Part shown: positions 1-50,187 of the stretch, one piece after another
Layout of the letters: each line of letters starts with the position of its first letter
Position numbering within the stretch: position 1 is the first letter of the stretch
Source: a virus
Taxonomy: Duplodnaviria > Caudoviricetes
Reading direction: 5' to 3' (one strand)
Virus record (IMG/VR): IMGVR_UViG_3300037424_000162
Coordinates: 1-50,187 of that record
DNA length: 50,187 bases
Program-made: the position numbers and the translations under genes
The notes under the pieces: model-generated
The model's input: the letters and a program-made list of their open reading frames with translations, nothing else
What the model was told of the DNA's origin: nothing
Databases searched by the model: none

Positions 1-127
1 GACCAGTTCCCGCTCATGGAACACAAGACCGGGGCTACTGGTAACGTGACCATGGAAATCTTCGGAGTCGCCGACAAGTCCAGCCTCCAGGAACAGCTTT
101 TCAGCGGGTTCTATGACCTTGGGAAGC
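1..127. repeat. Terminal direct repeat, identical to 50061-50187 (circular assembly overlap)
   Basis: 1-127 matches 50061-50187 exactly; it falls inside an open reading frame; 127 is a common assembler k-mer length. Confidence 0.95.
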
Positions 128-4586: not shown

Positions 4587-7500
4587 TGGCCGCCGAAGAC
4601 GCTGGGTCGATTTACAGTGAAGTCAGAATCAAGATTGATCAACTCCAGAAGGATATTGCAACCGCCGTGTCCGTCATGGACAGGTTCGGCCAGAAGGTTG
4701 TCGATTCCGGGAACATCGCATCAAACCTTTTTTCAAACTCATACAGCCAGTCAGTCAAGAAAGTCGAATCCTACGTCAAGTCTCTCGACAAGGCGGTAGC
4801 GGACGGGGCGTTGACTCAACGTCAAGCCATCTCCTCTGCTATCGATGCACGCAAGGCGGAACTAGCATATATCCAAGCGACTGCCGCGAGAAAAGGCGGG
4901 TTCACTGACCAGGAAATCGGAGATCTGAAACGGGTCAAGACAGAGATTTCCAGTCTGACGGAACAGCAGAAGAAACTGGGTTCTGAGGTTGAAAAGTCTT
5001 CGGGGTCATTCAAACTTTTAGCCCTTGCCGCATCGACATTCATCATTACGCAATTCCGCGCCTTGATTACCTCAAGCGCCGCCTACTCCGAGGCCTTGGG
5101 GGATTTACGGGCCGCAACTAAGGGCAACGCCGAGGGATTGGATGAACTGGCTAAGGCCGCTGAGGGTGCCGGTAAATCCGTTGCCGCATCGTCCACTCAG
5201 GCCATTGAGGCGGAAGTTGCACTTGCCAAGGCGGGTGTTTCTACGGCGAACATCTTAGGCGGGGCGCTCACCGGAGCCTTGACCCTCGCCGCTGCCGGGA
5301 CGATGGAAGTAGCCGACGCCGCCGAGATTGCCGCCGCAACAATGACCCAGTTCAACCTTGACGGTCAGGACGTGGTACATATCGCCGACCTTCTAGCCGC
5401 TGGAGCTGGTAAGGCTCAGGGCGAAGTATCAGACCTGTCCCAAGCCTTGAAGCAAGCTGGTCTGGTGGCCTCTCAGACGGGTCTTTCGGTTGACGACACC
5501 GTGGGGACCCTTGCCGCATTTGCCTCGGCTGGACTATTGGGAAGCGATGCTGGTACCTCGTTCCGAACCATGCTCCTACGGCTTACCCCTCAAAGTAAGG
5601 AAGCCGCTGGGGAAATGAAACGCCTCGGGCTTAATGCGTTTGACGCCAAGGGCGAGTTTATTGGTATTGAGAAGTTCGCAGGTCAACTCAAGGACCAGCT
5701 TTCAGACCTGACTACCGAACAGCGTAACTCCGCGCTTGCTACGATTTTCGGGACAGACTCTATCCGAGCCGCTAACGTGCTATACACCCAGGGGGCTAAG
5801 GGAATCTCGGAGTGGATTGGTAAAGTTAATGATACCGGGTTTGCGGCAGAGGTAGCCAGGATCAAGCTTGACAACCTCGCCGGGGACCTTAAAAAGCTTG
5901 ACGCCCAGGTAGCCACGTCATCGGCCAAGATTGGCGGGTCGCTTGACCCCTCTCTGCGGGGCCTTGCTCAGGGGGCTACAGCGTTCCTTGACTTCCTCGA
6001 CGATATTCCGGCGCCTATTGCCGCGTTCATCACCGCCGCCGGGACTCTTGCCTCCGGAATCGTTGCAGTCACCCTTGGGGTAGGATTCTTGACCCCGGCA
6101 CTGGCAATGATGGGGATTACGGTGTCGGCCGCCTTCGGGCCAATTGCCCTTGCCGTAGGAGCCGTCACTGCGTTGGCTGGTGGTATTATCGCCATGACTA
6201 ATGCCGTCAATGCCGCCGATGTCGAGAAGGCTGGAAGGATTTTCGGGGATATCGCGGTCGAGGCTGGATTGTCAGGCGAGGAACTGGCCAAGTTCAACCA
6301 AAGAGCCAGTGATGCGGAGAAGTTCCTCCGGGCTATGGAACTCGACGGGATGGCTAGTGCCAAGTCGTTTGAGACCCTAGCCAAAGACCTGGGATTGACC
6401 AATGACCAACTTGCCCAGATTGCCATTCGGTCCAGGACAAGCGGTCAGGAGATCAAGAACATTGCTTCAGGGTACCTTGACGGTGCCGCCGCCGCTAAAA
6501 GATTTGCCGAAGCTAACGTCACCCTTGCCTTGACCCTCCGGGATTCCTGGAGATCGGCCACCCCTGCCGAAATCAAGAAGGTCGAAGATGCCCTGACTGG
6601 AATACCAGTGGCCGTTGAAGATGCCTCGGCGCTGACTGCAAGCGAACTTGAGGAACTGACTGCCCGTTACCGTGCCACAGCGGACAGAGTCGCAGACATT
6701 GTCGGTTACATGCGGGCCACACGCGAGAAGGAATCCATTGCTGAGGCTGATGCGATTGCCTCCAGTAACGAGACCATCATTGGGTCCTATGCCTACGCTC
6801 AAAACAGGGTTCGGGGCATCATTGAAGCCAGGATCAAGGCTACGGCCAAGGAAGAAGAGAAAGTCCAGCTTGAGACTAATGTCAAGCTTGCAGAGTCAAT
6901 CCTAAACACCTTTTCAGGTCTTACCAATGCTCTGGCCGACATTTTCGCATCTCTTAGCGATAAGCAAATCAACGCACTTGAAAGAGTCTATGACCACGAA
7001 CGAGAACTCATCGAGAACAATGGTCTGACGAAAAAACAAGCCCTTGAAAAAGATGTTGCCGATGCGATAACTGCGGGAGACGCTACCGCTCAAGCTGACG
7101 CACAACGGGCTCTTGATCTATATAACCTAGAGGCTGATTTCACAAGAAAAAAGGCCCAACTTGAATACGAAGCGGCTATGACCCAATGGAAGTTCAACCT
7201 TGTGATTGCCGCCGCCAACGCCGCTAACAGCATCCTTAAGGCCGTGGCAAGTGCCGCCTTCCCCCTCAACATCCCCGCCATTGCCTTCGCATCCCTGGTT
7301 GGTGGTGCTCAGACTGCCGCCGTGTTTGCCGCCCAACCTCAGCCCCCGGCGTTTGCTACAGGTGGTATTGTGTTGCCCTCTGGCAACGCGGGAAGACAAG
7401 TCACGGTTGCCGACAAAGACGGAGGAGAAATCATGTTCGGGACCGGCGCAATGGGCGCCCCTATGATGCAAGCCTTCGTGAGTGCCGTTGCCTCAGAAGT

Positions 7501-9311: not shown

Positions 9312-11144
9312 ATGCTCCTAACCATCCTAGCCTCCACAAGGAACTTTACCTCCCTCGCCTACGTCGATTCCTTCGTTGTCTCGTCGCTTTTCAGCTACCA
9401 AATGGCCGACTGGTGGACCGTGACGTTTGGGGCGCCGGATGAATCCGTTATCCGTGCTCGTCCGCTAGTGCTCAACGTCCGGGCTGACAACGTGGACTAC
9501 ACCCAGGTTTCAACCTACGCCGCATGTCTTGCGCTAGAACGATCTTGGTACATCTCAGACACGGCCTTTTCCATCCATCTAGATCATGACATCGTCCATG
9601 AAGGCGTAGTAATCCAGTACGGCAACGGTCAGGGATTCTCGGACACCGACGTGGTCTACATCGACGACGTGGAATACCTCCCGCTTATCACTCAAGCCCC
9701 GAGCATCAACCGCGCCGAGGATATCCAAGGATACTCAAAACTCAGGCTAATCTCCGGGTCCTTGGGCCTGTCTAATCGTGGCGGGCGACTGGACTACCTC
9801 AAGGATTTCAGCGTTATCGGGAACGAGGCCCGACTGTCCTACCTCGACAACACCAATGTAATCGACAACCAAGCGCAAACCTCCGCCGTAGTGCCTCAAG
9901 CGGCCTACTTCGTCGAGGAAGCTGAGTACGGGAACGCTGAGACCGGCATGGCTCTACAAGATACCAGGAAGCTCGACAAGCTAGTCCCGGCTCGGTTTTT
10001 CGACTCCACAACCTATCCCTACCTGAACGACTCAATTGACGGCAAGGTGGTGCCCCTGGTCTTCGGGGTATGTCGGTCGGTCAAGTGCATCCCGGTCAAT
10101 ACCGAACTCACCGGCACGCTATCGGCAACCTACCGGTGTTCCGAACTCCTGACCAGCATCTCCGAGGTCAGGGTCAAGATCGACGACACATGGACCGTAG
10201 TCGCCACCTCATCGACCGATCTGCCTAACGGGACATTTACCATCGCCACGGCTAGAGCATCAACGGGACAGGCCCCATACGAGTGCCAAGCTGACGTAGT
10301 TGGAATCCCGGTGGTCAACGCGCCGGACATCATCGAATATCTCTACCTCAACTATGAAAACCAGGCGTTCAACGGTACGTTCTACGACACCACTACCTGG
10401 ACAGCGAACAAGGCCGGTATCCCGACTTGTGGCCTGGTCATCGACAAACAGCGGGCCATTCTTGACGTCATCCCCGATATCCAAAACGGCGTGTTCCCGA
10501 CGTTCCGATTTGATACCGTGGTTGGTGACACTAGAAAGACCATACGGCTAGACGATAAGACACGGCCCGTTGACTGGTACGTGTCGAGTCTGGATGTGCT
10601 GAACATCGACGATCTCAACCCTAAGGATGTTTCGGACTACCTTTTCGGAGAGGTTACAGTCGAGTACGATCAGGACCACAGTAACGACGAGTACCGTAAA
10701 ATCACAGTAGACACCTACAAACAAGACGTAATCGAGAACTACCAGTGGTCGAACTCTAAGTCACTCCCAACACTCCTGACGAACTCGACGGATGCTCAGA
10801 CTATGGCAGACGCAAAGGCTCTAGAGTTCTCGGTTCCGATTCGGACCATTGACTTGATCCTTATGGGGCAACGGTATTTCGGTGTTGAGATTTTCGACAT
10901 CATGCAAGTCGATACCGCCATGGGCCGAGAAGAGTACTACACCGGGGATTGGACGGGCCGGGAGTTTCTAGGAGTCATCAAGGTCCAGGTGATTGGAATC
11001 CAACCGGATTACGGTAGCCTAACCACGGCGTTTACTTGTAAAATACTATCGACGGTTGCACTCGTCGTACAACCGGATTTCCTGGTGACCGAAGACGGCG
11101 ACTACATCCTGACCGAAGACGGCTATTTAATCGAGGTGGAATGA
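9312..11144 (+). CDS. Putative tail tip/baseplate hub protein
   Basis: 610 aa; G..VPLVFG motif; C-terminal L.TEDG repeats; tail-region synteny. Confidence 0.6.
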   Translation: MLLTILASTRNFTSLAYVDSFVVSSLFSYQMADWWTVTFGAPDESVIRARPLVLNVRADNVDYTQVSTYAACLALERSWYISDTAFSIHLDHDIVHEGVVIQYGNGQGFSDTDVVYIDDVEYLPLITQAPSINRAEDIQGYSKLRLISGSLGLSNRGGRLDYLKDFSVIGNEARLSYLDNTNVIDNQAQTSAVVPQAAYFVEEAEYGNAETGMALQDTRKLDKLVPARFFDSTTYPYLNDSIDGKVVPLVFGVCRSVKCIPVNTELTGTLSATYRCSELLTSISEVRVKIDDTWTVVATSSTDLPNGTFTIATARASTGQAPYECQADVVGIPVVNAPDIIEYLYLNYENQAFNGTFYDTTTWTANKAGIPTCGLVIDKQRAILDVIPDIQNGVFPTFRFDTVVGDTRKTIRLDDKTRPVDWYVSSLDVLNIDDLNPKDVSDYLFGEVTVEYDQDHSNDEYRKITVDTYKQDVIENYQWSNSKSLPTLLTNSTDAQTMADAKALEFSVPIRTIDLILMGQRYFGVEIFDIMQVDTAMGREEYYTGDWTGREFLGVIKVQVIGIQPDYGSLTTAFTCKILSTVALVVQPDFLVTEDGDYILTEDGYLIEVE

Positions 11145-16051: not shown

Positions 16052-16083
16052 ATTCCACCTTCATACGAGGGTGGGGGTTATTG

Positions 16084-16276: not shown

Positions 16277-16453
16277 TCACTCCTCCTCAATCTCTTGCGC
16301 TTCGCCGATGGTAAGATTCATCCTAGCGGTCAACAGGTTCGCTTGTTCGTGGCGTAGAGCATTGGCCTCTTCACTGTTCGCCGGTAGCGCGGTCAGTAGC
16401 TCGAAGTTGGCGTTGATCCTGTCGGTTAGTTGATCTTGACGTGTCATATCCAT
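16277..16453 (-). CDS. Hypothetical protein
   Basis: ORF packed in the leftward operon. Confidence 0.55.
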   Translation of the reverse strand: MDMTRQDQLTDRINANFELLTALPANSEEANALRHEQANLLTARMNLTIGEAQEIEEE

Positions 16454-16457
16454 ATCC

Positions 16458-16679
16458 TTAGTTGACTCTGTACCGATACTCATAGTCCAACGTTGCCTTC
16501 TCCGGCTTATTACCTCCAGCCATGGTGAAAATGATCTTCGGTTGATCTTCGTATGCCAGTGACGAGGAAACGATATCGCACCAGAAGTCTTTGCCGATGT
16601 CAATAGAAACCCTGTCTCCCCGCATTACCATCTGGCGAATGATTTTTGCCGATCCTTTTTTGAAAGTGTACTTACCCAT
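16458..16679 (-). CDS. Hypothetical protein
   Basis: RBS GAGGGG with ATG at 16679. Confidence 0.6.
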   Translation of the reverse strand: MGKYTFKKGSAKIIRQMVMRGDRVSIDIGKDFWCDIVSSSLAYEDQPKIIFTMAGGNKPEKATLDYEYRYRVN

Positions 16680-16680
16680 C

Positions 16681-16755
16681 CCTCTATCCTTGACTCCCAT
16701 CCTTGCTTACAACGCAATCCCACGGGCTTGTCACCGGGGTGCATGGTTAAGGAGG
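16681..16755 (-). ncRNA. Twister self-cleaving ribozyme (type P1, with P5)
   Basis: Minus-strand RNA reads UCCU-UAA-CCAU-GC-A-CCCCGG-U-GAC-AAGC-CCG(U)GGG-A-UUGC..GCAA-GG-AUGG-GA-GUC-A-AGGA. P1, P2, P4, P5, the conserved UAA/GC/AAGC/GA residues and both pseudoknots (GAC:GUC and GC:GC) are present. Confidence 0.85.
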
Positions 16756-16777
16756 CCCCCGGGTGGGGGATTTGACG

Positions 16778-17014
16778 CTAGAGAACTTCCTTCTTAGCTT
16801 CCTCTTCGTCATCTTTGCCTTGGATTGCATCCAGAACATCATGGACCTGAGACTTGGCTTCCTGGATCAAGGAATTGACGCCGTTCTTCATTCCATTTAC
16901 CTCGTAAGATCCGCCTACCGACTTCTCAGTCTTCGCAAGAATAGACGTTTGATAGCTGTTCGTACTGAACACCTCAATCGTGACCTTGATTTGGACGTTT
17001 TCCCGTACTTTCAT
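16778..17014 (-). CDS. Hypothetical protein, first gene of the leftward operon
   Basis: RBS GAGGAG; downstream of the leftward promoter. Confidence 0.65.
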   Translation of the reverse strand: MKVRENVQIKVTIEVFSTNSYQTSILAKTEKSVGGSYEVNGMKNGVNSLIQEAKSQVHDVLDAIQGKDDEEEAKKEVL

Positions 17015-17049
17015 CTCTTCTCTCCTCGGCGTCAACCGCCTATGTAGAG

Positions 17050-17140
17050 AGTATAGTACGGGGTTGGGATGGTGTCAACAACAATATTGAGGAAAGTTAA
17101 AAGATTTATGGTTGACAAGTTGTGGGTTGGGGTCTATTGT
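17050..17140. promoter_or_regulatory. Divergent sigma70-type promoters
   Basis: Leftward TTGACA(17078-17073)-17bp-TATACT; rightward TTGACA(17112)-17bp-TATTGT; GGGTTGGG occurs in both spacers. Confidence 0.75.
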
Positions 17141-17158
17141 ATAGGTATAGGAGACGCT

Positions 17159-17356
17159 ATGAACGAACAAACACAACCCCCTAAGAACATCAAACGCAAC
17201 GTCCAGACGGTCCACCAGTCAAGGGAAACCTTTGACGAGGTAGAGCGGTATCTTGCTTTCTTGAAGGGCTTGAGCGGGATTTCAGAGGGCCGGGCTTACG
17301 TGCAAGCCCTAACGGAGAAGATGGATCGCGAACGGGAGGCCGGACGATGGAAGTAG
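17159..17356 (+). CDS. Small putative DNA-binding (ribbon-helix-helix-like) regulator
   Basis: 65 aa; strand-helix-helix-like pattern; first gene after the promoter. Confidence 0.45.
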   Translation: MNEQTQPPKNIKRNVQTVHQSRETFDEVERYLAFLKGLSGISEGRAYVQALTEKMDREREAGRWK

Positions 17357-45046: not shown

Positions 45047-45130
45047 GGAAGGCACCTCTGTAATGGACGGAAACTAGTCTTGAAAACTAGGGGGTGGGAA
45101 ACTATAGGGGTTCGATTCCTCTGTCTTCCG
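45047..45130 (+). tRNA. tRNA-Ser(TGA)
   Basis: CTAGT-CTTGAAA-ACTAG anticodon arm, long variable arm, TTCGATT T loop, G73. Confidence 0.85.
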
Positions 45131-45133
45131 AAT

Positions 45134-45207
45134 GACTCCATAGCCCAACTGGCAGAGGCAAGCGTCTCAAAATCGCAGTGTTCTTGGTTCGAATCCAAGT
45201 GGAGTTA
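45134..45207 (+). tRNA. tRNA-Leu(CAA), short variable loop, weak anticodon stem
   Basis: GACTCCA/TGGAGTT acceptor; loop CTCAAAA; CTTGG-TTCGAAT-CCAAG T arm. Confidence 0.75.
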
Positions 45208-45209
45208 AC

Positions 45210-45282
45210 GGCCCTCTAGCCCAATGGCAGAGGCACCAGATTTAGGATCTGGTCAGTCTGGGTTCGACTCCCAGGGGGGCTA
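45210..45282 (+). tRNA. tRNA-Leu(TAG), short variable loop
   Basis: CCAGA-TTTAGGA-TCTGG anticodon arm; CTGGG-TTCGACT-CCCAG T arm; A73. Confidence 0.85.
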
Positions 45283-45289
45283 AGTTCTT

Positions 45290-45361
45290 AGCCGGATTGG
45301 TGTATCGGTAGCACATGGGCCTTGGGCGCTCAGGGGTCCGGTTCGAATCCGGGTTCGGCTA
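45290..45361 (+). tRNA. tRNA-Pro(TGG)
   Basis: TGGGC-CTTGGGC-GCTCA anticodon arm; TCCGG-TTCGAAT-CCGGG T arm. Confidence 0.75.
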
Positions 45362-45406
45362 TGTGGGTAGTCGCAAAAGTGAGATTCCGGTGAGCGATCC
45401 GGGCAT

Positions 45407-45492
45407 GGCACGGGATACCAGTAGGGGGCTGGACGAGACTGTAAATCTCGGGCGCTTTCGCGTTCCGTAGGGTTCGACTCCCTCACGTGTCA
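45407..45492 (+). tRNA. tRNA-Tyr(GTA)
   Basis: CGAGA-CTGTAAA-TCTCG anticodon arm; long variable arm. Confidence 0.8.
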
Positions 45493-49619: not shown

Positions 49620-50187
49620 ATGGCTATTTTTCTTGACCAGAAAGCCCTGATCCAAAAGCGGATCGAAGAGGGTTATACCGTTACCAATAAGGCGTTCAGG
49701 GGGACCGCTGAGGAGAACCTGAAGGCATCCGTTCCTAGTCAGCTTGCCGATAGTGACAAGGATTTTTTCATCACCATGGCCACTCCTCAGTGGGAAGGCT
49801 CTGAGGGCCATGCGAAGATTTGGAACCGTCTCGACGATCTCCACTCAAAGTTCGTTGTTCGGAACGCCGCGATGCTCCCCGACGATTGGAATCTATTCCA
49901 GACCTTGACCCGGCAGGACGTGACTCGGCGTTTTATGGCCGAACGGGACTATACCAACATCGTTGGATCTGAGTTCATCAACCCGGCGTATTCGAAGATC
50001 GTTGCCCTTGACGAGGTTCTGCCTTGGGGCGCGGCCATGGAAACCGTCTACGGTAACAATGACCAGTTCCCGCTCATGGAACACAAGACCGGGGCTACTG
50101 GTAACGTGACCATGGAAATCTTCGGAGTCGCCGACAAGTCCAGCCTCCAGGAACAGCTTTTCAGCGGGTTCTATGACCTTGGGAAGC
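49620..50187 (+). CDS. Major capsid protein, 5' part (continues at the window start)
   Basis: RBS AAGGAG, ATG at 49620, open to the window end and in frame with 1-753. Confidence 0.8.
   Translation, partial: MAIFLDQKALIQKRIEEGYTVTNKAFRGTAEENLKASVPSQLADSDKDFFITMATPQWEGSEGHAKIWNRLDDLHSKFVVRNAAMLPDDWNLFQTLTRQDVTRRFMAERDYTNIVGSEFINPAYSKIVALDEVLPWGAAMETVYGNNDQFPLMEHKTGATGNVTMEIFGVADKSSLQEQLFSGFYDLGK

What the first reader, a model, noticed from the sequence alone, without database searches (positions are those of the whole stretch)
16681..16755. Twister ribozyme inside a leftward early operon, overlapping the next gene's RBS
Seen on the minus strand: P1 UCCU/AGGA, L1 UAA, P2 CCAU/AUGG, P4 CCCCGG/CCG(U)GGG with loop UGACAAGC, P5 UUGC/GCAA, and GA-GUC able to pair with the loop GAC. 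Established: this matches the twister consensus, which cleaves at U^A (predicted between 16749 and 16748). The 3' extension of P1 (GAGG) is the Shine-Dalgarno of ORF 16679-16458. Inference: self-cleavage processes the polycistronic mRNA and may release or stabilise translation of the downstream genes.
Basis: partly seen in the sequence, partly recalled or inferred. Interest (0 to 1): 0.8.

Follow-up and report, generated by a model that had tools for sequence, protein, structure and literature searches.

The report
Phage twister ribozyme between two genes
A self-cutting RNA of the known twister type sits in the short gap between two small genes of an uncultured tailed phage, overlaps the next gene's ribosome landing site, and is kept almost unchanged in a related phage whose neighbouring genes have been swapped.

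Summary
On the minus strand, 16753-16687 has every sequence feature of a type-P1 twister ribozyme, with a P5 hairpin and an upstream P0 hairpin (16769-16756). Rfam misses it: 15.0 bits against a cut-off of 67.2. A general twister descriptor hits the window once, here, and 0 of 300 shuffles. The loop GAC / 3' GUC pseudoknot replaces the consensus CCC/GGG. It defines a subgroup found in at least 117 viral stretches and 44 bacterial-genome stretches, with covarying P1, P2 and P4. A related metagenome contig, L119, keeps the P0-to-P1 block at 79 of 83 bases while its flanks are no more alike than random DNA.

One correction: the likely Shine-Dalgarno is AGGA, the 3' strand of P1, 7 nt from ATG 16679. 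"Early" is not shown. Cleavage and its effect on expression are inferred, not tested.

This scan has reported phage twisters many times on other DNA. It is a new member of a known kind. The modest added interest is a natural SD-in-P1 layout that matches an engineered twister switch.

The parts
17050..17078 (-). Sigma-70-like promoter (TTGACA-17-TATACT) upstream of the leftward gene cluster
   Evidence: 11 of 12 consensus matches. This is a consensus match only, not shown to function.
16778..17014 (-). Upstream ORF (78 aa, unknown function); stop TAG 16780-16778
   Evidence: no PHROG match; AGGAG 7 nt before its ATG.
16756..16769 (-). P0 hairpin CCCCC-ACCC-GGGGG, two bases upstream of P1
   Evidence: Identical in L119. 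A P0-like hairpin is present in 72 of 112 subgroup members against 129 of 2260 random positions.
16687..16753 (-). Twister ribozyme proper, type P1 with P5
   Evidence: RF03160, 15.0 bits; R1, 19.0 bits, E 0.0038; descriptor: 1 hit, 0 of 300 shuffles; minimum-energy fold of the 67 nt is the twister secondary structure.
16750..16753 (-). P1 5' strand UCCU
   Evidence: L119 has U at 16752, changing C-G to U.G, which still pairs.
16747..16749 (-). L1 5' strand UAA; predicted cut between U16749 and A16748 (A16748 general acid, A16747 essential)
   Evidence: roles as given in the CHiTA preprint.
16743..16746 (-). P2 5' strand CCAU
   Evidence: Pairs with AUGG 16700-16697. In relatives P2 is 100% paired and all 4 pairs covary.
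16741..16742 (-). L2 GC, partner of loop G16727-C16726 (pseudoknot T2 of PMC5408937, PK1 of CHiTA)
16719..16739 (-). P4 (CCCCGG / CCGUGG with a C16737.U16722 mismatch) and loop L4 UGACAAGC 16733-16726
   Evidence: L119 has A at 16737, giving a perfect 6-pair P4.
16703..16717 (-). P5 hairpin UUGC-GUUGUAA-GCAA (optional stem)
   Evidence: L119 has an 8-pair version with 7 extra bases.
16697..16700 (-). P2 3' strand AUGG
16691..16696 (-). L1 3' strand GAGUCA: G16696 is the general base; A16695 G16694 U16693 C16692 pair with loop A16729 C16730 A16731 G16732 (pseudoknot T1 / PK2)
   Evidence: roles.
16687..16690 (-). P1 3' strand AGGA, probably the Shine-Dalgarno of the downstream ORF (7 nt before ATG 16679)
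   Evidence: L119 has AAGGAG 6 nt before an ATG of an unrelated ORF.
16458..16679 (-). Downstream ORF (73 aa, unknown function)
   Evidence: three homologues at 81, 68 and 61% identity, all 71-73 aa, so the start at 16679 fits better than ATG 16700; no PHROG match.

Best explanation
This is a genuine type-P1 twister self-cleaving ribozyme with two optional hairpins, P0 upstream and P5 inside. It lies in the 98-nt gap between two small co-directional genes of a siphovirus-like phage.

What the sequence shows: it carries all the nucleotides the family needs for folding and catalysis. It belongs to a widespread phage and prophage subgroup in which the L4-L1 pseudoknot is GAC/GUC instead of CCC/GGG.

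What is inferred:
- As the leftward transcript is made, the RNA folds and cuts itself between U16749 and A16748.
- The upstream message then ends in the P0 hairpin plus a 2',3'-cyclic phosphate.
- The downstream message starts with a 5'-hydroxyl and the compact ribozyme body.
- The 4-pair P1 falls apart, freeing AGGA, the likely ribosome binding site of the next gene.
- The two cistrons thereby become uncoupled in stability and translation.
For: Identity:
- Sub-threshold RF03160 hit at exactly this place (E = 0.076 over the genome).
- A general descriptor gives 1 hit in the window and 0 in 300 shuffles.
- The site is the top hit of a model built without the window.
- Each required base is present: A16748, A16747, G16696, T2 GC/GC, T1 three Watson-Crick pairs plus A.A, the G-C and U.A extension of P4, and A of L4.
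- The minimum-energy fold of the 67-nt RNA is the twister structure.

Family:
- P2 is complementary at 4 of 4 positions in 70 of 71 unique members, although the pattern did not ask for it.
- On 40 members, P1, P2 and the outer P4 pair covary, with a covariation score of 0.292 against 0.116 in shuffles, 0 of 500 reaching it.
- 13 twister-P1 matches in the 12 loci scanned, the pattern members among them, score 34-47 bits to RF03160, E from 1.5e-7 to 8e-4.
- Hatchet, pistol, hammerhead II and RAGATH RNAs lie nearby in those loci.

This copy:
- L119 keeps P0..P1 at 79 of 83 bases, with flanks at random level.
- Its changes fit the structure: C-G to U.G in P1, A-U in P4, and a longer P5.

Function:
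- The element is on the sense strand between co-directional ORFs, with a promoter-like site upstream.
- AGGA is 7 nt from the ATG, the phage's usual spacing.
- L119 uses the same strand (AAGGAG, 6 nt) for an unrelated ORF.
- An engineered P1-format twister masking an SD gave about 5-fold more expression when active in E. coli (PMC5052635, passages read).
- Processing of polycistronic mRNAs has been suggested for bacterial twisters (PMC6765202, passages read).
Against: - Rfam's own threshold is far from met: 15.0 against 67.2 bits.
- The family-model E-value is only 0.0038 with a rough calibration. The subgroup was retrieved with a pattern taken from the window, so its core letters are not independent evidence.
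- G16701 stands where 102 of 113 subgroup members have A.
- P4 has a C.U mismatch.
- In the CHiTA assay, twisters with a P0 cleaved less: mean 0.40 against 0.85.
- With downstream mRNA included, the predicted minimum-energy fold is a competitor that pairs the cleavage-site region with the start-codon region. It scores -34.8 against -22.9 kcal/mol for P0 plus the nested twister stems, pseudoknots not counted. The 106-nt region folds no better than shuffles (z = 0.13).
- SD-in-P1 is rare. Only 4 of 113 members show it, two of them ambiguous; 58 have a separate SD downstream and 51 have none within 120 nt.
- The window and L119 share two other conserved segments (16312-16270 and 16080-15572), so block-limited conservation may mark a recombination joint rather than selection for catalysis.
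- The engineered study saw no effect of 5'-UTR cleavage as such on mRNA level.
- There is no cleavage or expression data for this element.
Confidence: 0.72

Rival explanations
1. It is a twister by descent that no longer cuts, or cuts poorly. It survives as a structured intergenic spacer and recombination joint at which small phage genes are exchanged, and P1 and P0 act only as RNA structure.
For: - G16701 stands where 102 of 113 members have A.
- P4 has a C.U mismatch.
- P0 lowers cleavage in vitro.
- The window and L119 share other short conserved junctions between unrelated ORFs.
- Only one close relative was available.
Against: - Every base reported as catalytically or structurally essential is intact.
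- CHiTA found about 94% of tested natural twisters active, with broad tolerance of P1, P2 and P4 imperfections, and every P5-bearing twister above 0.80.
- The four substitutions between the window and L119 avoid the invariant core.
Confidence: 0.17
2. It is an active twister whose main role is not RBS release. It defines mRNA ends: a protected 3' end for the upstream message (P0 hairpin) and a structured 5'-OH leader for the downstream one, or it is regulated through P5.
For: - P0-like hairpins abut P1 in 72 of 112 subgroup members against 129 of 2260 controls.
- Most members have a separate SD downstream (58 of 113), so RBS masking cannot be the general role.
- P5 differs in length between the window and L119.
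- P1 and P5 were proposed as possible regulatory sites (PMC5052635).
Against: - There are no stability data.
- The engineered E. coli constructs showed no change in mRNA level from 5'-UTR cleavage alone.
- P5 here is a plain short hairpin with no sign of an aptamer.
Confidence: 0.3
3. It is a chance resemblance to the twister consensus with no common descent or function.
For: The Rfam score is only 15 bits, E = 2.2 in the local scan, and the thermodynamic z-score is 0.13.
Against: - The descriptor gives 0 hits in 300 shuffles.
- There are hundreds of relatives with the same core and covarying stems.
- L119 is a near-identical orthologue with unrelated flanks.
Confidence: 0.02

Closest known systems
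Twister self-cleaving ribozyme, type P1 (Rfam RF03160, clan CL00120; Roth et al. 2014 as summarised in PMC5408937 and in the CHiTA preprint 10.1101/2024.07.11.603121)
   Same: - Order P1-L1-P2-L2-P4-L4.
- UAA at the cut site and a 4-pair P2.
- The L2 GC pairs with the L4 GC.
- L4 pairs with the L1 3' strand through three pairs plus A.A.
- G directly after P2's 3' strand.
- Optional P0 and P5.
   Different: - The T1 pseudoknot reads GAC/GUC instead of the Rfam consensus CCC/GGG. This is a compensatory change that a covariance model cannot credit.
- It has a 16-nt P5-bearing insert.
- G, not A, precedes P2's 3' strand.
- It scores 15 bits against the 67.2-bit cut-off.
Engineered SD-masking twister expression platforms in E. 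coli (Felletti et al. 2016, PMC5052635; passages read)
   Same: The ribosome binding site is paired in a ribozyme stem that cleavage disrupts. In the engineered P1 format, the active ribozyme gave about 5-fold more reporter than the inactive one.
   Different: - That system is artificial and sits in a 5'-UTR, based on the env-9 twister. Here the layout is natural and lies between two cistrons.
- No expression effect has been measured here.
- The authors noted that the ribozyme body left upstream of the SD damps translation in the P1 format.
Proposed processing of bacterial polycistronic mRNAs by hammerhead and twister ribozymes (review PMC6765202, passages read; its refs 41 and 148 were not held)
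   Same: An intergenic, sense-strand ribozyme between co-directional genes in a phage-related context, with the idea that cleavage gives transcripts of different stability or translation.
   Different: The review treats this as an untested suggestion. Nothing here adds experimental proof, only a well-defined natural example with a relative.
Earlier reports of this scan on phage twisters (902 findings in at least 601 genomes)
   Same: Sub-threshold phage twister variants with P0 or P5, located between small early or accessory genes; twisters at gene-cassette joints.
   Different: Those are on other DNA. This case adds the overlap of P1's 3' strand with the downstream SD in two relatives that have unrelated downstream ORFs.

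Membership tests
Twister ribozyme (RF03160 type P1) | Score at or above Rfam's gathering threshold | tested here: not met
   15.0 bits against 67.2. Subgroup relatives also stay below it at 34-47 bits, so the threshold excludes the whole subgroup.
Twister ribozyme (RF03160 type P1) | Stems P1, P2 (4 pairs) and P4 in the right order around loops L1, L2 and L4 | tested here: met
   The descriptor matches once in the window. The minimum-energy fold of the 67 nt gives P1, P2, P4 and P5.
Twister ribozyme (RF03160 type P1) | Cut-site dinucleotide N-A followed by A (general acid A1, essential A2) | tested here: met
   U16749, A16748, A16747 (roles).
Twister ribozyme (RF03160 type P1) | General-base G at the first position of the L1 3' strand | tested here: met
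   G16696, directly after P2's 3' strand (role).
Twister ribozyme (RF03160 type P1) | Pseudoknot between the L2 GC and the L4 GC (T2 / PK1) | tested here: met
   G16742-C16741 with G16727-C16726.
Twister ribozyme (RF03160 type P1) | Pseudoknot between four L4 bases and the L1 3' strand: three Watson-Crick pairs plus A.A (T1 / PK2) | tested here: met
   G16732-C16692, A16731-U16693, C16730-G16694, A16729.A16695. The letters differ from the consensus on both sides.
Twister ribozyme (RF03160 type P1) | G-C pair and U.A pair extending P4 into L4; conserved A of L4 (A6) | tested here: met
   G16734-C16725, U16733 and A16728 are present. That they actually pair is inferred from sequence only.
Twister ribozyme (RF03160 type P1) | Stems supported by covariation in relatives | tested here: met
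   on 40 relatives: 10 of 18 pairs change on both sides, P2 is 100% paired, and 0 of 500 shuffles reach the covariation score. T1 and T2 are invariant there by design of the search.
Twister ribozyme (RF03160 type P1) | Site-specific self-cleavage giving 2',3'-cyclic phosphate and 5'-OH ends | not testable with these tools
   No RNA run was listed.
GAC/GUC phage twister subgroup (defined here) | A immediately 5' of the P2 3' strand (102 of 113 members) | tested here: not met
   The window and L119 have G (G16701).
SD-masking ribozyme switch (works-like comparison) | SD lies in a stem that cleavage releases, at working distance from the start codon | tested here: met
   AGGA 16690-16687 is P1's 3' strand, 7 nt before ATG 16679. 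L119 has AAGGAG 6 nt before an ATG. The effect on translation was not tested.

The most novel reading that the evidence does not exclude
The P0-twister-SD block is a portable intercistronic joint. Phages exchange small genes at it, and it supplies whichever ORF lands downstream with a ribosome binding site that becomes available only after self-cleavage, while the P0 hairpin caps the upstream message. That would give bacterial and phage twisters a concrete job and explain why they cluster among variable small phage genes.
Probability: 0.2. Interest if true: 0.65.

Novelty: new member of a known kind. Interest (0 to 1): 0.35.

Why it matters
The review read here (PMC6765202) says the biological role of bacterial and phage twisters has not been determined. 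This copy is a clean natural test case, with several useful properties:
- a defined cut site between two co-directional ORFs
- a likely SD inside P1
- an upstream capping hairpin
- a close relative in which the ribozyme block is kept but the neighbouring ORFs differ

It also shows that Rfam's twister-P1 threshold misses a subgroup with a compensated pseudoknot, present in at least 117 viral and 44 bacterial-genome stretches. That matters for annotating phage genomes.

Tried and rejected
- Rfam at gathering threshold found only three tRNAs. At E up to 0.5 over the whole window it found only tRNA-like hits, so no second ribozyme class is in this phage.
- The phage record collection had no DNA match to 16300-17200.
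- The small flanking proteins had no close relatives in viral contigs. The alignment of the downstream ORF with its three homologues found no locus in metagenome or viral contigs.
- The copy-specific pattern gave 0 hits in viral contigs and 0 in genome contigs.
- RNA evidence: no RNA holder was listed.
- Thermodynamic folding of the 106-nt region is uninformative: z = 0.13, and pseudoknots are not modelled.
- R1's secondary hits in the window (9889-9951, 14 bits; 6870-6905, 13.3 bits) lack the L4 core and lie inside tail genes, so I treat them as chance.
- R1 aligns only the P4/L4 part of L119, because the long P5 insert is penalised.
- 'P1 3' strand = SD' as a general rule for the subgroup is rejected: 4 of 113. 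An earlier version of that classifier let SD cores inside the ribozyme body count and misfiled L119; one search replaces its SD counts.
- My first P1 count was one base out of register. One search replaces it.
- My rough estimate that the pattern should give only a few chance hits is my own arithmetic with an unknown collection size, not a tool result. The unrequested P2 complementarity (70 of 71) is the real control.
- Literature searches listed no paper describing a natural twister whose P1 carries the SD. That is three keyword searches of the held library, not proof of absence.
- Roth et al. 2014 and Felletti et al. 2017 are not held and supplements are closed. I therefore could not check whether published twister alignments already include GAC/GUC members.

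Full report
THE OBSERVATION.
- P1 UCCU (16753-16750) / AGGA (16690-16687)
- UAA with the predicted cut between U16749 and A16748
- P2 CCAU (16746-16743) / AUGG (16700-16697)
- GC (16742-16741)
- P4 with loop UGACAAGC (16733-16726)
- a P5 hairpin (16717-16703)
- GAGUCA (16696-16691), whose GUC is complementary to the loop GAC

Rfam at its own thresholds reports only tRNAs in the window. With permissive filters on 351 bases, twister-P1 (RF03160) aligns to 16687-16753(-) end to end, but at 15.0 bits against a gathering score of 67.2, E = 2.2. Over the whole 50,187-bp virus record E = 0.076. The alignment shows why the score is low. The loop reads GAC where the consensus has CCC, and the 3' strand reads GUC where it has GGG. 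This is a two-sided change in a pseudoknot, which a covariance model cannot credit. There is also a 16-nt insert.

IS IT MORE THAN CHANCE? I wrote a descriptor from the published requirements. It fixes only AA, GC, AAGC and GA. P1, P2 and P4 need only be complementary, the three pseudoknot letters are free but must be complementary, and the gaps may be up to 40 nt. It hits the window once, at 16687-16753(-). It hits none of 300 dinucleotide shuffles, and 9 of 300 when P1 is not required. Folded alone, the 67-nt RNA has the twister secondary structure (P1, P2, P4, P5) as its minimum-energy fold at -18.8 kcal/mol.

RELATIVES. Most of the genome hits are Ruminococcus, Oscillospiraceae or other Clostridia MAGs; others are Nitrospira, Acidobacteriaceae, Verrucomicrobia and more.
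- Among 71 unique copies (70 from viral contigs plus the window's own), the two 4-base P2 strands, which the pattern left free, are complementary at 4 of 4 positions in 70, with 11 different combinations.
- On a MAFFT alignment of the 40 compact members of the 66 unique copies listed, window excluded, 91.6% of cells pair against 81.6% in shuffles. Ten of 18 pairs change on both sides. The covariation score is 0.292 against 0.116, reached by 0 of 500 shuffles. Slid registers drop to 10-36% paired.
- The two pseudoknots are invariant there by construction, so they say nothing.
- The 13 twister-P1 matches in the 12 family loci scanned score 34-47 bits to RF03160, E from 1.5e-7 to 8e-4. None of 14 loci reaches the 67.2-bit cut-off. 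The subgroup is therefore clearly twister, yet invisible at Rfam's threshold.
- Hatchet, pistol, hammerhead II and RAGATH-6/-7 RNAs lie next to several of them. From memory, that is the usual neighbourhood of twister and hammerhead ribozymes.
- A covariance model built from the 40 relatives ranks the window site first: 19.0 bits, E = 0.0038, with a rough calibration.

MEMBERSHIP, FEATURE BY FEATURE. I read passages and sections of the CHiTA preprint and passages of the review PMC5408937. From these, the family needs:
- A at +1 (general acid) and A at +2
- G at the first position of the L1 3' strand (general base)
- the L2 GC pairing with the L4 GC
- four L4 bases pairing with L1 as three Watson-Crick pairs plus A.A
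- a G-C and a U.A pair extending P4
- the A of L4

All are present: A16748, A16747, G16696, G16742/C16741 with G16727/C16726, G16732-C16692, A16731-U16693, C16730-G16694, A16729.A16695, G16734-C16725, U16733 and A16728. P0, P3 and P5 are optional in the family.

Deviations:
- G16701 stands where 102 of 113 subgroup members have A.
- P4 has a C16737.U16722 mismatch.
- A P0 is present, and in CHiTA P0 went with lower cleavage (0.40 against 0.85). The same study found P1, P2 and P4 imperfections well tolerated and every P5-bearing twister above 0.80.
- Cleavage itself cannot be tested here, and no RNA run was listed.

A CLOSE RELATIVE OF THIS COPY. A pattern carrying this copy's own P2 letters found one 1,146-nt metagenome contig, L119.
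- From the first base of P0 to the last base of P1, the two are identical at 79 of 83 aligned bases, plus a 7-nt indel in the P5 loop.
- The 60-150 nt on either side are 47-55% identical per column, the same as unrelated random pairs (0.49 +/- 0.03).
- The substitutions are C16752 to U (C-G becomes U.G in P1), A16740 to G (unpaired L2), C16737 to A (which makes P4 a perfect 6-pair helix in L119), and changes that lengthen P5 from 4 to 8 pairs.
- The ORFs downstream are unrelated. The upstream ones share only a 16-residue match, 7 of 16, E = 0.008 for the single comparison.
- The two phages are related: the terminal gene of the cluster is 143 of 154 residues identical.
- An exact-match map shows three shared segments: the ribozyme block, a junction of about 43 nt carrying the next gene's RBS (16312-16270), and the terminal gene with its leader (16080-15572). 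Unrelated ORFs lie between them.
- The ribozyme block is thus one of several conserved joints in a mosaic cluster. This fits selection on the RNA, but a recombination joint would look the same.

CONTEXT.
- The record is a complete siphovirus-like genome with terminal repeats. It has tape measure, tail, terminase, portal and protease genes on the + strand, and helicase, Cas4-like exonuclease, Sak4 and primase genes further on.
- The ribozyme lies in a five-ORF minus-strand cluster (17014 to 15554) of unknown function. The cluster sits just after the tail module and diverges from + strand genes at 17069.
- A promoter-like site, TTGACA-17-TATACT (11 of 12), lies at 17078-17050 on the minus strand.
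- Nothing shows that the cluster is 'early'.

THE RIBOSOME BINDING SITE.
- Of the 22 genes listed outside the ribozyme's two candidate starts, 18 have an SD-like core, mostly 4-9 nt before the ATG. This counts any of the six motifs at any spacing within the 25 nt shown.
- For ATG 16679, AGGA (16690-16687, the 3' strand of P1) is 7 nt away.
- Three homologues of the downstream ORF are 71-73 aa, so the 16679 start fits better than ATG 16700.
- In L119 the same strand reads AAGGAG, 6 nt before an ATG of an unrelated 39-aa ORF.
- Across the subgroup this is unusual. Only 4 of 113 unique members have an SD core overlapping P1's 3' strand, two of them ambiguous. 58 have a separate SD further downstream (median start +34), and 51 have none within 120 nt.
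- What is common is the upstream hairpin: 72 of 112 members against 129 of 2260 random positions in the same loci.

MECHANISM.
- Shown: a twister-family sequence with all required bases, on the sense strand between two ORFs, conserved as a block.
- Inferred: co-transcriptional cleavage at U16749^A16748; an upstream product ending in P0 and a cyclic phosphate; a downstream product starting with 5'-OH and the ribozyme body; loss of the 4-pair P1 and exposure of AGGA.
- Precedent: in E. coli, an engineered P1-format twister masking the SD gave about 5-fold higher expression when active, through SD accessibility rather than mRNA level (PMC5052635, passages read).
- The review PMC6765202 (passages read) records the suggestion that bacterial twisters and hammerheads process polycistronic mRNAs, and says that the reason for their gene associations is undetermined.
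- Against a strong effect: P1 is only 4 pairs, and the ribozyme body stays just upstream of the SD after cleavage. A competing fold that pairs the cut-site region with the start-codon region is predicted when downstream RNA is included (-34.8 against -22.9 kcal/mol for the nested twister stems plus P0, pseudoknots not counted).

VERDICT. The identification as a twister is right, the SD assignment needs correcting, and the function is a reasonable but untested inference. This scan has already reported phage twisters on other DNA many times (902 findings in at least 601 genomes), including variants with P0 or P5 and twisters at cassette joints. This is a new member of a known kind. The modest added interest is the natural SD-in-P1 layout, seen in two relatives with different downstream genes.

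Noticed in passing
window 45133-45492 (+), also 45047-45129: A cluster of four tRNA genes by ARAGORN: Leu-CAA, Leu-TAG, Pro-TGG and Tyr-GTA. Rfam adds a weak tRNA-like hit just upstream at 45047-45129 (tRNA-Sec model, 31.2 bits, below threshold).
   Followed up: partly
window 16312-16270 (-) and L119 378-420: A second short conserved junction between the two phages. It holds the end of one ORF plus GGAGGAGTGAGAGG-ATG, the RBS and start of the next gene, and is followed by unrelated ORFs in the two phages. It looks like a cassette boundary.
   Followed up: partly
window 16080-16046 (-) and L119 637-671: A conserved 35-nt leader with a hairpin lies upstream of the terminal 165-aa gene (PHROG 10011/2650, unknown function). 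On the + strand the same stem is scored terminator-like at 16053-16076.
   Followed up: no
window 16751-16743 with 16679-16671 (-): A predicted alternative helix pairs CUUAACCAU, which spans the cut site, with AUGGGUAAG, the start codon region. It dominates the minimum-energy fold when downstream RNA is included. It could hold uncut RNA in a translationally silent state, or it could be chance.
   Followed up: partly
L006, L015, L030, L044, L051 (viral contigs): In one common lineage the GAC/GUC twister sits directly between a RAGATH-6 RNA and a RAGATH-7 plus RAGATH-7-assoc RNA, with hatchet ribozymes and tRNAs nearby, forming a dense RNA island.
   Followed up: no
L078 919-969, 1211-1265, 1891-1942; L035 139-197 and 533-591; L052 4576-4634 and 4704-4762: Several contigs carry two or three twisters in tandem within about 1 kb.
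   Followed up: no
subgroup loci L002-L163: P0-like GC-rich hairpins abut P1 in 72 of 112 members, far more than the roughly 10% the CHiTA preprint reports for its twister pools. The 3' strand of P1 is 84% purine, 211 of 252 bases.
   Followed up: partly
window 35-77 and 50095-50137 (+): Two identical weak R1 hits at the two ends of the record (9.6 bits each) reflect the direct terminal repeat reported for the record. They are not ribozymes.
   Followed up: no
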